A program made the position numbers and the translations under genes. The notes beneath the pieces are model-generated. The model had not been told where the DNA came from and did not search any database. It saw only the letters and a program-made list of their open reading frames with translations. 64,000 nucleotides of DNA, taken from positions 4,749-68,748 of the forward strand of contig CAMKKS010000001.1 of NCBI GenBank assembly GCA_946413485.1. The letters run 5' to 3'. Below are positions 4,201 through 55,728 of this stretch, in pieces; positions within the stretch are counted from its first letter, which is position 1, and every line of letters begins with the position of its first letter. This DNA is from an uncultured Rickettsiales bacterium. GTDB lineage: Bacteria > Pseudomonadota > Alphaproteobacteria > Rickettsiales > Deianiraeaceae.

Positions 4201-4290
4201 TTAAATTTCCTTTTAAAAAATTTTAATATTCTTATATTATAATATAATAAAAAACTTTTAAATGAGTTCTAGAACTCTCAAACAGGGAAA

Positions 4291-4316
4291 GGGTCTATTA
4301 GAATTCTAATAAACCC
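4291..4316. terminator. hairpin GGGTCTATTAGA-ATTC-TAATAAACCC
   Basis: 12-bp stem with one mismatch, T-rich on both sides; bounds the GC-rich element 4321-4470. Confidence 0.4.
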
Positions 4317-4320
4317 TTTT

Positions 4321-4470
4321 AAAAGGCCTTTAACTGGTCCGCTATCACGCAGAGGAAGCGCATAAAGGCTCTATTTTTAGAGGTGCATCTGTGGCACCAT
4401 CTGCTGGCTGGCACGTGGCCAGTCGTGGCAATCTAAGCCCGCTTACACAGATGCACAAAAGGCTCTATCT
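4321..4470. ncRNA. GC-rich structured element of unknown class (candidate ncRNA)
   Basis: About 52% G+C over 4331-4460 (my count) in a <30% background; no ORF; 11-bp closing stem GTGCATCTGTG (4383-4393) / CACAGATGCAC (4446-4456), inner stem CTGGC-ACGTG-GCCAG, flanking direct repeat AAAGGCTCTAT (4365, 4459). Strand not determined. Confidence 0.35.
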
Positions 4471-4472
4471 TT

Positions 4473-4724
4473 CTAGGAATCCATCGGTGGATTTAAAACA
4501 TAATCTAAATTTACACTCTCAATAACAGCACGTTCTTCGAGAATACTCAAATATGCTTTCATTGTATTATACTGTGCAGACAAAAGACTTCTACTACATT
4601 TAGGTACAAAATTCAAAGTTTCCCAATTATTTAACATGTTACCTAATTTAACTGTTTTTGACAACAGTTCTTTATATTCAATAACAAATCTTTGCTGCCA
4701 ATCTGGCAATTCTTCAAACTTCAT
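4473..4724 (-). CDS. hypothetical protein
   Basis: 83-aa ORF, TAG stop, immediately downstream of tRNA-Gln in the minus direction. Confidence 0.5.
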   Translation of the reverse strand: MKFEELPDWQQRFVIEYKELLSKTVKLGNMLNNWETLNFVPKCSRSLLSAQYNTMKAYLSILEERAVIESVNLDYVLNPPMDS

Positions 4725-4758: not shown

Positions 4759-4833
4759 TGGCTGGGGTAGCAAGATTCAAACTTGCGAATGGCGGGATCA
4801 AAACCCGCTGCCTTATCACTTGGCTATACCCCA
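4759..4833 (-). tRNA. tRNA-Gln (anticodon UUG)
   Basis: TGGGGTA TA GCCAAGTGATAAGGC A GCGGG TTTTGAT CCCGC CATTC GCAAG TTTGAAT CTTGC TACCCCA G CCA; 75 nt cloverleaf, CCA encoded. Confidence 0.85.
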
Positions 4834-4838
4834 ATTTT

Positions 4839-4912
4839 TGGCAGGAACTAAAGGATTTGAACCCTTACAAAATGATTTGGAATCATTTGTGCTACCATTA
4901 CACCAAGTCCCT
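4839..4912 (-). tRNA. tRNA-Trp (anticodon CCA)
   Basis: AGGGACT TG GTGTAATGGTAGCAC A AATGA TTCCAAA TCATT TTGT AAGGG TTCAAAT CCTTT AGTTCCT G CCA; 74 nt. Confidence 0.85.
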
Positions 4913-5011: not shown

Positions 5012-5098
5012 TGGAGCGGGCCTCACGAGAATTGAACTCGGGCTTGATAAATCCTTTAACTAGTATATCTAAATACCAAGTAAACCATTCACCCGCAC
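5012..5098 (-). tRNA. long (type II-like) tRNA-like gene, non-canonical
   Basis: Ends ..CGAG TTCAATT CTCG TGA GGCCCGC T CCA with 5' GCGGGTG; about 85 nt. Only stem-loop in the anticodon region is GGTAT-TTAGAT-ATACT (6-nt loop, UAG centre). I could not fold a standard D arm or a 7-bp acceptor. Confidence 0.4.
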
Positions 5099-5106
5099 TT
5101 TAAAAG

Positions 5107-5124
5107 AGGTTCTTTCGAACCTCG
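5107..5124 (-). terminator. GAGGTTC-GAAA-GAACCTC hairpin upstream of tRNA-like gene
   Basis: 7-bp stem, GAAA tetraloop, TTTT after it on the minus strand; copies at 6012-6029 and 6135-6151. Confidence 0.5.
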
Positions 5125-5238
5125 AACAAAGGAAATAATTTACAATTCTATACTTTTCAGGGGGAAATCTTATGATATATCAAATTCAGTTAAATCTTTT
5201 TATTACTTTCTTTAAAATTCATTTTTCTTATCTTAAAG

Positions 5239-5556: not shown

Positions 5557-5694
5557 AATACATAAATTATTTATCTGAATTTAAAACTCATTATAAAGGA
5601 TTTTAACCCTTAATCAATAATGACCGAAAAAAGAGAGACTTTAAAAATCCTTTTAAAAATTTAACAATCCATTGTTAAAAGTCTCTCAAAATTT

Positions 5695-5763
5695 TAAGAA
5701 CTTCGGGAATTAAACCCGATCCTTCCATCAACGATGACATGCTACCAATAACACCAAGTTCCT
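5695..5763 (-). pseudogene. tRNA-like gene with truncated anticodon arm
   Basis: AGGAACT TG GTGTTATTGGTAGCAT G TCATC-GTT-GATGG AAGGA TCGGG TTTAATT CCCGA AGTTCTT; good acceptor, D and T arms but a 3-nt loop (GTT); about 68 nt; no CCA. Confidence 0.35.
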
Positions 5764-5905
5764 AAAAATCGTGAAACATTTTAAAAATTCTCAAAATTGA
5801 TTGCCTGACCTAATTTAATAGGTAAACTTCAATCAGGCAGCGATGGTTAAACCCAAAAATTACACAGCAGCAAGAGCATTCCAACTAGACCGCTAGTTCT
5901 TAAAA

Positions 5906-5980: not shown

Positions 5981-6011
5981 ATTTTTTAAATATTTATAAT
6001 CTTTCTCGAAA

Positions 6012-6029
6012 GAGGTTCTTTCGAACCTC
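6012..6029 (-). terminator. GAGGTTC-GAAA-GAACCTC hairpin upstream of tRNA-Thr
   Basis: Identical to the 5107-5124 copy. Confidence 0.5.
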
Positions 6030-6051
6030 AAAGGAGAACGTAATATGAAAC

Positions 6052-6512: not shown

Positions 6513-6924
6513 TCCTTAATTTAACGTTTTATAATCCAGTTTTAAAAACTGAATTTAATCGAATAAATAAGGTTTTTACAGAACCTTTTAACTGTTATCT
6601 ATTAAGACTCTTCTAGTCAAATTTGTATATGAACTGTTTTTTCGGAACAATAAAACCGTGTAATTTTTTACGGAAAACTACAAAACCGCTTTTTTGCAAC
6701 ATAAATCGTTGCGATTTTTACAGAACCGCAAAACTGTCATAGGTCTGTTATATCCCTTATGAATTTTGTTTTGAAATCGTTGTAGTTTTTAATGGAAAAC
6801 TACAAAACCTTCTCTTATGGTATGAATACTGTTTTTTTAACGGAACAATAAAACCGTTTTGTTTCTTTTAAAAGTTATACTTATCTTCACAATGCTATGT
6901 TAACTCTTAAAAAGAATTCGTTAA

Positions 6925-6995
6925 AGCCCCTTGACGGACTCGAACCGTCTTCTCCGGCTTGAACGCCGGTATCATAACCCATATACCAAAGGAAC
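6925..6995 (-). tRNA. non-canonical tRNA-like gene, anticodon region UUCAA (possible UCA)
   Basis: GTTCCTT TG GTAT ATGGGTTATG ATAC(C)GGC GTTCAA GCCGG AGAA GACGG TTCGAGT CCGTC AAGGGGC T; good acceptor (2 G-U) and T arm; anticodon stem CCGGC/GCCGG encloses only 6 nt; no CCA; 4 nt from tRNA-Glu. Confidence 0.45.
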
Positions 6996-7109: not shown

Positions 7110-7137
7110 ATTATATCATAATTTTATGATTTGTAAA
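7110..7137 (-). promoter_or_regulatory. sigma70-type promoter TTTACA-N16-TATAAT in front of tRNA-Glu
   Basis: Minus strand TTTACA (7137-7132), TATAAT (7115-7110); part of a roughly 60-bp repeat also at 7400-7440 and 7495-7540. Confidence 0.6.
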
Positions 7138-7169: not shown

Positions 7170-7350
7170 AAAAACACCCATAAAGACTCGAACTTTAATC
7201 TACTTCTTTTAATCTCCATCCTTGGAGGAACTTAAAGCACTTTTGCCTTGGCATTATTCTGAACAGACCCAACCATGGGGAAAATGGACTCGAACCAAAT
7301 CTACCCAAAAGCTTTAAGCATTTTCGACGTTAACCCAACTAGGTGTTTTT
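7170..7350 (-). other. two degenerate tRNA-like modules (interrupted or duplicated tRNA?)
   Basis: Two GTAGATT-x-GTTCGAGTC T-arm motifs (7185-7200, 7286-7300). 5' AACACCTA (about 7350-7343) pairs 8/8 (one G-U) with TATGGGTGTT after the distal T arm (about 7180-7171). Inner loop CTTAAAG (UAA). No single canonical cloverleaf found. Confidence 0.3.
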
Positions 7351-7408: not shown

Positions 7409-7436
7409 ATTATATCATAATTTTATGATTTGTAAA
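7409..7436 (-). promoter_or_regulatory. sigma70-type promoter copy 2 upstream of tRNA array
   Basis: TTTACA (7436-7431)-N16-TATAAT (7414-7409) on the minus strand. Confidence 0.55.
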
Positions 7437-7505: not shown

Positions 7506-7533
7506 ATTATATCATAATTTAATGATTTGTAAA
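7506..7533 (-). promoter_or_regulatory. sigma70-type promoter copy 3 upstream of tRNA array
   Basis: TTTACA (7533-7528)-N16-TATAAT (7511-7506) on the minus strand. Confidence 0.55.
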
Positions 7534-7633: not shown

Positions 7634-8296
7634 TTATTTAAAATTTACAGGCTTCTTTGTTTTTGAACCTGTGAACATTCCTTTAGTGGATTTTGTCTTA
7701 AGATCAGGCGACTTAACCCATTTATCAAGATCTTGTTTAAAGTTTGCTGCATCCATAAACATTTCAGCCATATTCCAAGCGCCTGAAACATCCCAGCCTG
7801 AAATATCGGAATTAAATTTAACCGCTAGATTAAACATATTTGAGAAGCCTCTAGCTTTCTTTGTCACATTCCACTTTGATAAATCACCGCTAAAAACAGC
7901 ATTATTATAAAACATATAATCAAACAGCTGTACATTTGAAACGTTCCATTTTGAAATATCGCCGTTGAATTTTGACTCAGCAAACATCCACGACATATCT
8001 GTCACATTTTTAGTATTCCACTTTGAGATATCACCGTTGAATTTTGAAAGATGGAACATTCCTCTCATGCTTGTAACATTTGAAACATCCCACTTTGAGA
8101 TATCACCGTTGAAGTCTTTAAATTCTTGAAACAAATATGACATATCTTTAACATTTGAAACATCAATAAAGTTTAAGTCACAATTGTTTCCTTCCTTTTC
8201 GATTGTATCTCTTATAATGATTTCCAATTTAAAACGATTTTTTGGTTTTACAGTTTCAGCTTCATTTAATGAGCTTAAAAATTCTTTAAATAACAT
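7634..8296 (-). CDS. DUF285 / BspA-type leucine-rich repeat protein with CTS-like N-terminus
   Basis: Six roughly 24-aa repeats FNGDISKW(D/N)VSNVTxMxxMF; N-terminus MLFKEFLSSLNE/AET. Confidence 0.75.
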   Translation of the reverse strand: MLFKEFLSSLNEAETVKPKNRFKLEIIIRDTIEKEGNNCDLNFIDVSNVKDMSYLFQEFKDFNGDISKWDVSNVTSMRGMFHLSKFNGDISKWNTKNVTDMSWMFAESKFNGDISKWNVSNVQLFDYMFYNNAVFSGDLSKWNVTKKARGFSNMFNLAVKFNSDISGWDVSGAWNMAEMFMDAANFKQDLDKWVKSPDLKTKSTKGMFTGSKTKKPVNFK

Positions 8297-54912: not shown

Positions 54913-55728
54913 TTAGCCTAAAAGGCTCAAAGCGATTGAATTTTTCTGATTAGCTTGAGCTAAAATTGATGTGCTCATTTGCTGTAAAATCTGTTGAGCT
55001 GTGTAGTTTGCCGTTTCCTCGGCATAATCTACATCTCTAATTCTGGATCTCGCATCTGTGATGTTTGAAATTACATTTTCTTGATTTTCGATTGTTGATT
55101 CTAAACGATTTTGAACAGCACCTAAAGATCCTCGATAAGAGTCGACGTTTGCTATCATTTCGTCAAGCCTTGTAATTGCACCTTGAGAAGCATCAGCTGA
55201 AGTTAAATCCAAAGCTGTTGAAAAATCTGCGATTGATGACATACTTTTCAATCCAAAGTCGATTGTTTGATTAGCGTCAGCACCAACCTGGAATTTGACG
55301 GTTTTATCTTCAGTGAAAAGTTTTTGACCGCCGAATGATGTATCGGTCCCTATTCGAGTAATTTCAGAAGAAAGAGCGTTTATCTCTTCTTGTATAGCCG
55401 TTCTTTGAGAAGTTGAATTTGTTCCGTTTGAAGATTGTAAAGCTAAAACACGCATTCGTTGAAGCATCTCAGTAACTTGATCAAGAGCTCCTTCAGTAGC
55501 TTGTGTCATAGATATTGCATCATTCGCGTTTCTGTTTCCTTGTTTCAAACCGTCAATCTGTGAGGTCATTTTATTTGAAATTTGAAGGCCTGCTGCATCA
55601 TCTTTAGCCGAGTTAATTCTAAAGCCTGAAGACAATTTGTCATAAGATTTGTTCAGAGACTTTGTAGATTTGTTTAATCTGATTTGAGCAGTTAAAGAGG
55701 AAACATTTGTGTTAACATATAAAGCCAT
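54913..55728 (-). CDS. flagellin (short D0-D1 type, 271 aa)
   Basis: N-terminal NTNVSSLTAQ..LSSGFRINSAKDDAAGLQISNKM..GLKQGNRNANDAISMTQATEGAL..MLQRMRVLALQS and C-terminal LGAVQNRLESTIENQ..ARSRIRDVDYAEETANYTAQQILQQ..SILAQANQ..LSLLG are the canonical flagellin termini; AGGAG SD. Confidence 0.9.
   Translation of the reverse strand: MALYVNTNVSSLTAQIRLNKSTKSLNKSYDKLSSGFRINSAKDDAAGLQISNKMTSQIDGLKQGNRNANDAISMTQATEGALDQVTEMLQRMRVLALQSSNGTNSTSQRTAIQEEINALSSEITRIGTDTSFGGQKLFTEDKTVKFQVGADANQTIDFGLKSMSSIADFSTALDLTSADASQGAITRLDEMIANVDSYRGSLGAVQNRLESTIENQENVISNITDARSRIRDVDYAEETANYTAQQILQQMSTSILAQANQKNSIALSLLG

What the first reader, a model, noticed from the sequence alone, without database searches (positions are those of the whole stretch)
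4321..4470. A 52% G+C, ORF-less, highly self-complementary island next to the tRNA array: unknown structured RNA
**Composition.** In a genome where even coding DNA is under 35% G+C, 4331-4460 is about 52% G+C (my count).

**Structure.**
- It folds on paper into an 11-bp closing helix: GTGCATCTGTG / CACAGATGCAC.
- That helix encloses GC-rich sub-helices: CTGGC-ACGTG-GCCAG, and the alternative GCCA-GTCG-TGGC.
- It is bracketed by a direct repeat AAAGGCTCTAT.
- It is followed by a terminator-like hairpin (4291-4316).

**What it is not.** I could not match it to a tRNA (no T-loop), to tmRNA or RNase P signatures, or to any riboswitch or ribozyme consensus I can recall with confidence. A UAAGCCCGCUUA segment is vaguely reminiscent of twister-type AAGC..GGG cores, but I do not claim that.

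**Candidates.** A phage sRNA, a self-cleaving ribozyme, a Y-RNA-like or other RNA-repair cofactor (a ligase/phosphoesterase block is encoded in this window), or a protein-binding decoy.
Basis: seen in the sequence. Interest (0 to 1): 0.7.

Follow-up and report, generated by a model that had tools for sequence, protein, structure and literature searches.

The report
Modular small RNA ending phage tRNA operon
The G+C-rich island is two conserved, non-coding folded RNA modules on the minus strand at the end of a tRNA operon of an uncultured cattle-rumen T4-like phage; it matches no described RNA family and its function is unknown.

Summary
Window 4331-4460 is 52.3% G+C in a 29.3% G+C window, the 11-bp helix and the repeated 11-mer exist, and no Rfam family matches.

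The island is not one RNA domain. It is two modules on the minus strand, the strand of all neighbouring tRNAs and genes. Each module begins with AUAGAGCCUUU.
- **Unit A (4383-4456)** is a cloverleaf-shaped four-way junction closed by the 11-bp helix.
- **Unit B (4326-4369)** is a 7-bp stem around a nearly invariant interior.
- **Hairpin C (4291-4316)** is terminator-like and follows B.

In related contigs, mostly from cattle and rumen samples, B was the last conserved RNA module of the tRNA operon in every context recovered. It follows either tRNA-Ser(GCU) or a Sequestin gene. Four of the seven pairs of its outer stem covary and pairing is 100%.

Unit A is optional. It is present or absent in both contexts, lying between two copies of the leader motif. 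Only four A variants were found; every stem substitution keeps pairing.

No reading frame is conserved, and no host or known-phage source turned up.

Best reading: a new phage small-RNA family cut from the tRNA precursor, the same kind of thing as phage T4 RNA C and RNA D. Interest is moderate.

The parts
4458..4468 (-). Leader motif, copy 1 (AUAGAGCCUUU), immediately 5' of unit A and 10 nt after the stop codon of the Sequestin ORF.
   Evidence: Exact repeat. It is invariant in front of unit A in every A-bearing relative, and in L019 and L073 it starts 3 nt after the CCA end of tRNA-Ser.
4383..4456 (-). Unit A, a cloverleaf-shaped four-way junction.
- P1: 4446-4456 pairs with 4383-4393 (11 bp).
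- H1: 4424-4441, CGGGC-UUAGAUU-GCC(A)CG; its loop fits the T-loop pattern (U at loop position 1, purine at 4, A at 5).
- H2: 4408-4422, CUGGC-CACGU-GCCAG.
- H3: 4394-4404, GCA-GAUGG-UGC, stacked directly on P1.
   Evidence: Folds and RNAalifold consensus. Across 4 distinct variants, P1 shows A-U/G-U/G-C and G-C/G-U, H2 shows G-C/A-U and H1 shows C-G/U-G. 95 of 95 pair cells are paired on the minus strand against 91 of 95 on the plus strand. The unit is optional: it is absent from L009, L010, L015-18, L067-72, L076, L137, L152, L166, L201, L204 and L208.
4375..4382 (-). A/U-rich linker CUCUAAAA between unit A and leader copy 2.
   Evidence: Alignments A2 and A3. It varies between lineages (CCCUAAAA, ACCCUAGAAAG). 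The proposed pairing of CUCUA with UAGAG is not kept, because a U-to-C change gives an A.C mismatch.
4364..4374 (-). Leader motif, copy 2 (AUAGAGCCUUU). Its last six bases form the first six bases (GCCUUU) of the 5' strand of the unit B stem.
   Evidence: AAUAGAGC is invariant in front of B in all 9 distinct B variants.
4326..4369 (-). Unit B, the constant module.
- Outer 7-bp stem: 4363-4369 pairs with 4326-4332 (GCCUUUA/UAAAGGC).
- Inner stem: CGCU (4357-4360) pairs with AGCG (4340-4343).
- 13-nt pyrimidine-rich loop: 4344-4356 (UCCUCUGCGUGAU).
- Invariant 3' strand: AGCGGACC.
   Evidence: The outer stem is 100% paired in 9-10 distinct sequences, 4 of 7 pairs change on both sides, and 0/500 shuffles reach the covariation score. 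Covariance model R1 finds exactly one copy per locus at 79-88 bits, always at the end of the tRNA operon.
4291..4316 (-). Hairpin C (GGGUUUAUUAG-AAUU-CUAAUAGACCC) followed by UUUCCCUGUUU. It is the likely 3' end or terminator of the operon.
   Evidence: Sequence. A U.G pair makes it a better hairpin on the minus strand. Relatives carry a hairpin at the same place with a different sequence. The strict terminator scan did not call it.
4473..4724 (-). Context: the upstream 83-aa ORF of the Sequestin family (PF21825). Its last codons resemble the 3' end of a unit A copy.
   Evidence: Pfam E = 5e-22 and the gene table. Family function is taken from bioRxiv 10.1101/2025.07.12.664507.
4759..4912 (-). 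Context: tRNA-Trp(CCA) and tRNA-Gln(UUG), the last tRNAs of the operon that ends with units A, B and C.
   Evidence: ARAGORN and Rfam.

Best explanation
The island encodes non-coding RNA on the minus strand. It forms the 3' end of a tRNA operon of an uncultured T4-like phage found in cattle and rumen metagenomes.

**Layout.** The transcript runs tRNA-Trp, tRNA-Gln, Sequestin ORF, unit A, unit B, hairpin C. Units A and B are separately folded modules, each preceded by the same single-stranded A/U-rich leader, (A/G)AUAGAGCC.

**Unit B.** This is the constant module. Its 7-bp stem is kept by covariation, while about 30 interior nucleotides are almost invariant. That pattern is the signature of a specific binding site for a protein or an RNA partner.

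**Unit A.** This is an accessory cloverleaf-shaped cassette that lineages have gained or lost by recombination between the repeated leaders.

**Inferred, not shown.** I infer that the modules are released from the polycistronic precursor by the host nucleases that mature the tRNAs (RNase P, RNase E/Y or RNase Z type cuts in the leaders). They would then persist as small stable RNAs acting in trans. This is the same arrangement as RNA C and RNA D of phage T4, and as sRNAs derived from tRNA 3' external transcribed spacers.
For: **Strand and operon.**
- All 7 tRNAs and the flanking ORFs are on the minus strand.
- Strong promoters lie upstream on that strand, and none lies next to the island.
- G-U pairs fit the minus strand only: 95 of 95 against 91 of 95 pair cells.

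**Non-coding.** Every frame is broken in L019.

**Unit B structure.** The outer stem is 100% paired and 4 of 7 pairs change on both sides. The six stem variants found are GCCUUUA, GCCUUCA, GCUUUCA, GCCGUCA, GCAUUCA/GCAUCCA and GCAAUCA, each with a matching 3' strand. 0/500 shuffles reach the score, and slid controls fall to 23-50% paired.

**Unit B position.** In every recovered context it is single-copy and follows the last tRNA or the Sequestin ORF, whereas the downstream genes differ between lineages.

**Unit A structure.** All substitutions in its stems keep pairing, including an A-U to G-U to G-C series in P1 and G-C to A-U in H2.

**Unit A presence or absence.** It varies in two independent contexts, always between two leader copies.

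**No other identity.** There is no Rfam match and no match in the phage collection or in bacterial genomes.

**T4 precedent.** T4 encodes RNA C and RNA D at the end of its tRNA cluster, roles unknown (PMC3014915).
Against: - No expression data could be examined, so transcription, processing sites and stability are all inferred.
- Only four distinct unit A sequences were found. Its covariation does not exceed shuffles (65/500), and fold z-scores are modest (about -2.1 to -2.6).
- The inner fold of unit B is unresolved. The UGCGC/GCGUG hairpin is broken in L208, L152 and L019, and the alternative CGCU/AGCG stem never varies.
- Units B and C could act purely in cis, as an operon-end, processing or stabilising element.
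- The idea that the loop of B pairs with ribosome-binding sites was not supported: mean duplex energy is -5.27 against -4.34 +/- 0.66 for shuffles, with 6 of 100 shuffles as low.
Confidence: 0.6

Rival explanations
1. Units B and C are a cis-acting operon-end element: a transcription terminator, a block to 3' exonucleases, or a processing platform for the upstream tRNAs. They would not be a trans-acting RNA, and unit A would be a passenger.
For: B and C sat at the 3' end of the tRNA operon in every context found. Hairpin C is replaced by unrelated hairpins in other lineages, as terminators usually are. The B stem is followed by CUUUU(U).
Against: About 30 interior nucleotides of B are nearly invariant while the stem covaries, which a simple terminator or protective hairpin does not need. 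B also follows a protein-coding gene in the window lineage, so it is not tied to maturing one particular tRNA. In the lineage of L204, L208 and their relatives, a canonical terminator lies about 100 nt further downstream.
Confidence: 0.22
2. Unit A is a selfish DNA insertion with no RNA role. It would be a miniature inverted-repeat element (11-bp terminal inverted repeats plus an 11-bp target duplication) or a cassette spread by homing-endonuclease-driven gene conversion.
For: A is present or absent at the same point in two different contexts and is flanked by the 11-mer repeat. Related contigs carry HNH endonuclease genes, TnpB and IscB/HEARO elements in this region. In T4, SegB drives inheritance of the tRNA region (PMC2330249, title and abstract listed; I did not read the paper).
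Against: The inverted repeat does not abut the direct repeats: there is 1 nt on one side and 8 nt on the other. The 'target' is the conserved functional leader of B, not an arbitrary site. The arms change in a compensatory way (A-U, G-U, G-C) instead of keeping a fixed binding sequence, and an internal hairpin also covaries. Each genome segment holds only one copy. No transposase is associated with it.
Confidence: 0.12
3. The modules are degenerate tRNA derivatives or tRNA mimics. Unit A is cloverleaf-like and unit B has a 7-bp acceptor-like stem. They would act as decoys or substrates for tRNA-binding enzymes or for host tRNA-targeting defences.
For: A is a four-way junction in which H3 stacks on P1 with no spacer, and the H1 loop UUARAUU fits the T-loop pattern. 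The B stem is 7 bp and is followed by U and a purine, like tRNA positions 8 and 9. The region holds several other aberrant tRNA-like genes. T4 RNA C carries a genuine T-arm.
Against: There is no RF00005 hit even at E <= 10, and ARAGORN makes no call at 70% thresholds. Arm and loop sizes are not those of a tRNA: P1 is 11 bp, the middle arm has a 5-nt loop and H3 is 3 bp. There is no CCA or discriminator context. The 'anticodon-like' loop of B varies freely.
Confidence: 0.1
4. The island is a self-cleaving ribozyme or a riboswitch aptamer of an undescribed class.
For: Unit A has a compact multi-helix junction with conserved joining strands.
Against: No ribozyme or riboswitch family matched at E <= 10 on either strand. 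The position at the 3' end of an operon, with different downstream genes in different lineages, does not suit a riboswitch.
Confidence: 0.03
5. The island is a recently acquired fragment of host or foreign coding DNA.
For: Its G+C content is far above the genome average.
Against: No reading frame is conserved. The four genome-collection hits to a degenerate unit A pattern are chance matches. The phage collection has no match. Substitutions follow base-pairing, not codons.
Confidence: 0.02

Closest known systems
Phage T4 RNA C (species 1) and RNA D (species 2), AF158101 70908-71171
   Same: They are small structured non-coding RNAs encoded on the same strand immediately after the last tRNA of the tRNA cluster of a T4-type phage. 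They occur as two tandem modules of about 120-140 nt, and their function is still unknown (PMC3014915).
   Different: There is no detectable sequence or model similarity: nhmmer with unit A, and the unit B profile and covariance model, found nothing in the T4 region L008. T4 RNA C contains a canonical T-arm (GGGUUCGAAUCCC), whereas units A and B do not. An optional-cassette behaviour like that of A is not known to me for T4.
sRNAs derived from tRNA 3' external transcribed spacers (for example E. coli 3'ETS-leuZ)
   Same: The position is the same: the stretch between the last gene of a tRNA operon and its terminator, which could be released as a by-product of tRNA processing. The existence of the class is my own knowledge; papers that mention it are listed.
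   Different: The known examples are host-encoded, Hfq-dependent sponges for specific sRNAs. Here no partner is known, the host is unknown and processing is untested.
Large ornate RNAs found next to tRNAs in phages and prophages (ROOL, GOLLD)
   Same: They are structured RNAs of unknown function associated with phage tRNA genes, and ROOL was first seen in rumen metagenomes (my own knowledge, not tested here beyond Rfam).
   Different: They are about 500-800 nt. Rfam models for them are in the library, and nothing matched in the window.
tRNA (RF00005)
   Same: Unit A has a four-way junction with the last arm stacked on the closing helix and a T-loop-like heptaloop. Unit B has a 7-bp closing stem.
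   Different: The covariance model and ARAGORN both fail to call them, and arm lengths and loops are not tRNA-like.
Miniature inverted-repeat elements and IS200/IS605-derived palindromic elements; HEARO/omega RNAs of IscB
   Same: Unit A is about 90 bp, has an 11-bp inverted repeat, is flanked by a direct repeat and varies in presence. Relatives carry TnpB, IscB and HEARO RNAs nearby.
   Different: A is single-copy, its arms covary, the repeat is a functional leader, there is no HEARO hit in the window, and A has no similarity to the flanks of those elements.

Membership tests
tRNA (Rfam RF00005 / ARAGORN) | A covariance-model score above the gathering threshold, with a cloverleaf of 7-bp acceptor stem, D, anticodon (7-nt loop) and T arms | tested here: not met
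   The island has no RF00005 hit even at E <= 10 on a 1.1-kb search. ARAGORN at 85%, 90% and 70% thresholds calls neither A nor B.
T4 RNA C / RNA D | Location at the 3' end of the phage tRNA cluster, on the same strand, and non-coding | tested here: met
T4 RNA C / RNA D | Sequence or structure homology to the T4 RNAs | tested here: not met
   nhmmer with the A and B profiles, and covariance model R1, found nothing in the T4 region L008. The folds differ.
T4 RNA C / RNA D | Accumulates as a discrete stable RNA processed from the tRNA precursor | not testable with these tools
   No expression data are available.
Self-cleaving ribozymes (twister, twister-sister, hammerhead, pistol, hatchet, HDV-like) | A match to the family covariance model, including its conserved core | tested here: not met
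   cmscan of both strands at E <= 10 gave no ribozyme family.
Bacterial Y RNA / YrlA | A match to the Y-RNA models, and a Ro (TROVE) protein encoded nearby | tested here: not met
   There is no Rfam hit. None of the 26 window ORFs scanned against Pfam matched TROVE. The remaining ORFs were not scanned.
Miniature inverted-repeat transposable element | Terminal inverted repeats at the very ends, a target-site duplication, and multiple dispersed copies | tested here: inconclusive
   The inverted repeat and the flanking 11-mer are present. However, the repeat is offset from the arms, each locus has one copy, and the arms covary.
HEARO / IscB omega RNA (RF02033) | A covariance-model match | tested here: not met
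   There is none in the window. It is present elsewhere in relatives L011, L166 and L204.
Intrinsic terminator (hairpin C) | A G+C-rich stem followed by an uninterrupted U-tract | tested here: inconclusive
   There is an 11-bp stem, but the tail is UUUCCCUGUUU and the scan did not call it.
tRNA 3'-ETS-derived sRNA | Lies between the last gene of a tRNA operon and its terminator | tested here: met
tRNA 3'-ETS-derived sRNA | Released by RNase E or RNase P and base-pairs with a partner RNA | not testable with these tools
   The host and the transcriptome are unknown.

The most novel reading that the evidence does not exclude
Unit A is a new kind of small mobile RNA cassette. It would be a cloverleaf-shaped, tRNA-elbow-like module that moves between phage genomes by using the conserved processing leader as its recombination site. 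It would act as a decoy or adaptor for a host tRNA-recognising factor, for example an anti-phage tRNA nuclease or a tRNA-processing enzyme. Unit B would be the resident scaffold that ensures its release.
Probability: 0.1. Interest if true: 0.75.

Novelty: new member of a known kind. Interest (0 to 1): 0.48.

Why it matters
- **An open problem in T4 biology.** Phage T4's RNA C and RNA D have had no known function for about fifty years. An unrelated pair of modules in the same genomic position in a distant T4-like clade suggests that 'a small structured RNA at the end of the tRNA operon' is a recurring phage feature rather than a T4 oddity.
- **A tractable candidate.** Unit B offers a short element with clean covariation and an invariant interior, suitable for pull-downs and structure work.
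- **Modular evolution.** The presence or absence of unit A is a clear case of cassette-like evolution of non-coding RNA in phages.
- **Limit.** None of this is a major surprise to specialists until a function is found.

Tried and rejected
1. **Rfam.** Searches at the gathering threshold and at E <= 10 gave only tRNAs and noise over the island.
2. **Public phage records.** BLASTN of the island and megablast of 20 kb found nothing except tRNA-Glu.
3. **IMG/VR.** Exact-pattern scans for unit A found nothing. The unit B 15-mer gave 46 chance hits, and the gapped B pattern gave one real hit, identical to L137.
4. **Neighbouring genes as handles.**
   - The 83-aa ORF had no relative in IMG/VR.
   - The gp4 gene found two relatives whose fetched flanks held no tRNA genes.
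   - The 124-aa downstream ORF has only near-identical homologues.
5. **Metagenome scan with the B pattern.** Most of the 120 loci were unrelated; 42 came from one unrelated recurring sequence. Four were real.
6. **Genome-collection scan for unit A.** The four hits were chance matches.
7. **Pairings dropped.**
   - The CCA/UGG hairpin and the CUCUA/UAGAG extension from the single-sequence fold are broken in relatives.
   - RNAalifold's GCA/UGC H3 fits all variants.
8. **Loop of B as an anti-Shine-Dalgarno mimic.** The test was not significant.
9. **Coding potential.** Rejected.
10. **Last contig look-up (P0053).** It returned a context without unit B.

Full report
**1. What the window is**

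The window encodes T4-type structural proteins:
- portal gp20 (E = 4e-108)
- major capsid protein gp23 (E = 1e-99)
- large terminase
- tail sheath
- the gp4 head-closure protein
- the gp3 tail sheath stabilizer

The window is 29.3% G+C. It has no close relative among deposited phage genomes. Near-identical and related contigs come mostly from cattle and rumen metagenomes in ENA, Logan and JGI; several record names say 'bovine metagenome'.

All seven tRNA genes between 4759 and 7075, and the flanking ORFs, lie on the minus strand. Three copies of a near-consensus promoter (TTTACA, 16 nt, TG-extended TATAAT) lie upstream on that strand at 7533, 7436 and 7137. Another promoter-like site is at 5617. 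None lies next to the island.

**2. The observation**

- **G+C content:** 52.3% for 4331-4460. The highest 130-nt value in the whole window starts at 4325.
- **Closing helix:** 11 bp, 4383-4393 with 4446-4456.
- **Direct repeat:** the 11-mer is exact at 4364-4374 and 4458-4468, and a one-mismatch copy lies inside the hairpin at 4288-4298.
- **Hairpin:** 4291-4316.
- **Fold stability:** modest, z about -2.2 to -2.6.
- **Rfam:** nothing matches the island at the gathering threshold or at E <= 10 on either strand.

**3. Relatives split the island into modules**

I used the upstream 83-aa ORF as a handle. It belongs to Pfam PF21825, which the contig tool labels Sequestin. It has a swarm of homologues at 76-95% identity, and I fetched their contigs. 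A gapped DNA pattern for the constant part added four JGI loci.

Read on the minus strand, the island is: leader AUAGAGCCUUU, unit A, a short A/U-rich linker, leader AUAGAGCCUUU, unit B, hairpin C. The alignments are, and the sequence listings.

Unit B plus a following hairpin closes the tRNA operon in every context where I found it. There are two contexts:
- after the Sequestin ORF: window, L003, L004, L006, L009, L010, L015-18, L066-72, L152, L198;
- three or four nucleotides after the CCA end of tRNA-Ser(GCU): L019, L073, L075, L076, L080, L137, L166, L201, L204, L208-212.

Unit A is present in only some members of each context. The window, L003-L007, L198, L073, L075, L080 and L019 have it; the rest lack it. 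Where it is absent, a single leader copy remains.

A covariance model of B finds exactly one copy per locus. It finds none in the T4 tRNA region.

**4. Evidence for RNA structure, unit B**

Nine distinct B sequences keep the 7-bp outer stem 100% paired, and four of its seven pairs change on both sides:
- third pair: C-G, A-U or U-A
- fourth pair: U-A, A-U or G-C
- fifth pair: U-A or C-G
- sixth pair: U-A or C-G

No shuffle out of 500 reaches the observed covariation score, and sliding the partners drops pairing to 23-50%.

The interior, AUGCGCUUCCUYU...AGCGGACCAGUU, is almost invariant.

The inner fold is unresolved. A 5-bp hairpin with a 7-nt loop is broken in L208, L152 and L019. The alternative CGCU/AGCG stem never varies, so it cannot be tested.

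**5. Evidence for RNA structure, unit A**

Only four distinct variants were recovered, so the statistics are weak: 65 of 500 shuffles do as well. Even so, every substitution inside a stem keeps pairing.
- **P1:** one position shows A-U, G-U and G-C; another shows G-C and G-U.
- **H2:** one position shows G-C and A-U.
- **H1:** one position shows C-G and U-G, and a 1-nt indel only moves a bulge.

RNAalifold gives a four-way junction whose third hairpin (GCA-GAURG-UGC) stacks directly on P1.

The H1 heptaloop is UUAGAUU or UUAAAUU. This fits the T-loop pattern (U at position 1, purine at 4, A at 5). That is a resemblance I recognise, not a tested fold.

**6. Strand and coding**

On the minus strand 95 of 95 pair cells in A are standard pairs. 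On the plus strand four become C.A. Hairpin C also contains a U.G pair on the minus strand.

No reading frame is conserved. In L019 an indel and stop codons interrupt all six frames.

**7. Not a host or foreign fragment**

A degenerate unit A pattern gave four hits in 185,579 species genomes. This is about the number I estimated by hand for chance, and none matches the A profile. IMG/VR contains only one B copy, the same contig as L137.

**8. How it most likely works**

*Shown:*
- It is a conserved, non-coding element on the minus strand.
- It is structurally constrained and sits at the end of a tRNA operon.
- It is built from a constant module and an optional one, each behind the same leader.
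- The downstream genes differ between lineages. The 123-aa ORF that follows B-C in L073 has no homologue in the window. This argues against a leader or riboswitch for a particular downstream gene.

*Inferred:*
- The modules are transcribed with the tRNAs from the upstream promoters.
- They are cut out at the A/U-rich leaders by the nucleases that mature the tRNAs.
- They persist as small RNAs.
- The invariant interior of B is a binding surface for a protein or an RNA.

I tested one specific idea, that the pyrimidine loop of B pairs with the phage's AAGGA ribosome-binding sites. It was not significant.

The patchy distribution of A is best explained by recombination between the two leader copies. 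The region is plainly recombination-prone. The last codons of the Sequestin ORF in the window (CCACCGATGGATTCCTAG) and in L066 (CCAGAGATGCACTCCTAG) look like the 3' end of another A copy. Relatives also carry HNH endonuclease genes in this tRNA region, and TnpB and IscB/HEARO elements on the same contig stretches.

**9. Comparison with what is known**

The closest known thing is the pair RNA C and RNA D at the end of the phage T4 tRNA cluster. Their roles are still unknown (PMC3014915). Position and strand are the same, but there is no sequence or model similarity.

By position the island also corresponds to a tRNA 3' external transcribed spacer, a known source of bacterial sRNAs (my own knowledge; papers that mention the class are listed).

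It is not a tRNA, a known ribozyme or riboswitch, or a HEARO RNA. A Y-RNA identity has no support: no Y-RNA family matched and no TROVE protein was found among the ORFs scanned.

**10. Verdict**

This is a real, previously undescribed phage RNA family of a known general kind. Unit B has good comparative support. Unit A has suggestive but thin support, and there is no functional evidence for either. Interest is moderate.

Noticed in passing
window 54913-55728 (-): The phage encodes a complete flagellin: 271 aa, with Flagellin_N at E = 2e-43 and Flagellin_C at E = 1e-23. This is unusual for a T4-like virion gene region and hints at a flagellated host.
   Followed up: no
window 4473-4724 (-): The ORF just upstream of the island belongs to the Sequestin family (PF21825). 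Members of that family are reported to sequester 3'cADPR and block Thoeris defence. Here it is embedded in the tRNA operon, and its C-terminal codons vary by lineage and partly derive from unit A-like sequence.
   Followed up: partly
L204 5088-5307; L166 8353-8572; L011 4200-4419: Related phage contigs contain HEARO RNAs (RF02033, the omega RNA of IscB) at 94-99 bits. In L011 it lies directly upstream of an RRXRR+HNH (IscB-type) ORF. In L204 and L166 it stands alone about 190 nt downstream of units B and C. TnpB (OrfB_IS605) interrupts a radical-SAM gene in L075 and L208-L212. The window has none of these.
   Followed up: partly
window 5016-5112, 5694-5764, 6528-6607, 7172-7322 (all -): Several aberrant tRNA-like elements are missed at default settings and called only at lowered ARAGORN thresholds. 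They include a 97-nt one ending in CCA (5016-5112) and one with a shortened anticodon arm (5694-5764). The latter region is conserved in L073, where it was mis-called as a 62-aa ORF.
   Followed up: partly
window 6925-6995 (-): ARAGORN reports a tRNA with an undetermined, two-base 'anticodon' (tc); its RF00005 score is 31 bits. The same oddity recurs in L198 and L201, and other odd ones (cg, acga) occur in L074, L204, L208 and L166.
   Followed up: no
window about 5795-5897 (-); L222 about 1990-2095: By eye, another non-coding block after tRNA-Thr looks similar in the two loci...CUUGCUGUGUAAUUUUUGGGUU.AACCA..GCUGCC.GAUUG...AGGUCAGGCAAUCA. It has no Rfam match.
   Followed up: no
window 7110-7137, 7409-7436, 7506-7533 (-): Three copies of a repeat of about 95 nt each carry a near-consensus extended -10 promoter (TTTACA, 16 nt, TGnTATAAT). 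They lie upstream of the tRNA arrays.
   Followed up: no
window 5103-5126 and 6009-6032: A 24-nt hairpin (GAGGUUC-GAAA-GAACCUC on the minus strand, followed by UUU) is repeated upstream of a tRNA-like element and of tRNA-Thr. It may be a processing or termination hairpin.
   Followed up: no
L137, L166, L073, L208, L019, L076 (hairpin C of the tRNA-Ser lineage): In these relatives the loop of hairpin C holds a self-complementary hexamer, GUAUAC. In L137 it changes to CUAUAG, so both ends change together. This suggests either an extended stem capped by UAUA or a kissing-loop dimer site.
   Followed up: no
window 7634-8296 (-): A 220-aa protein made of DUF285 repeats (PF03382, E = 3e-50) lies next to the tRNA region.
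   Followed up: no
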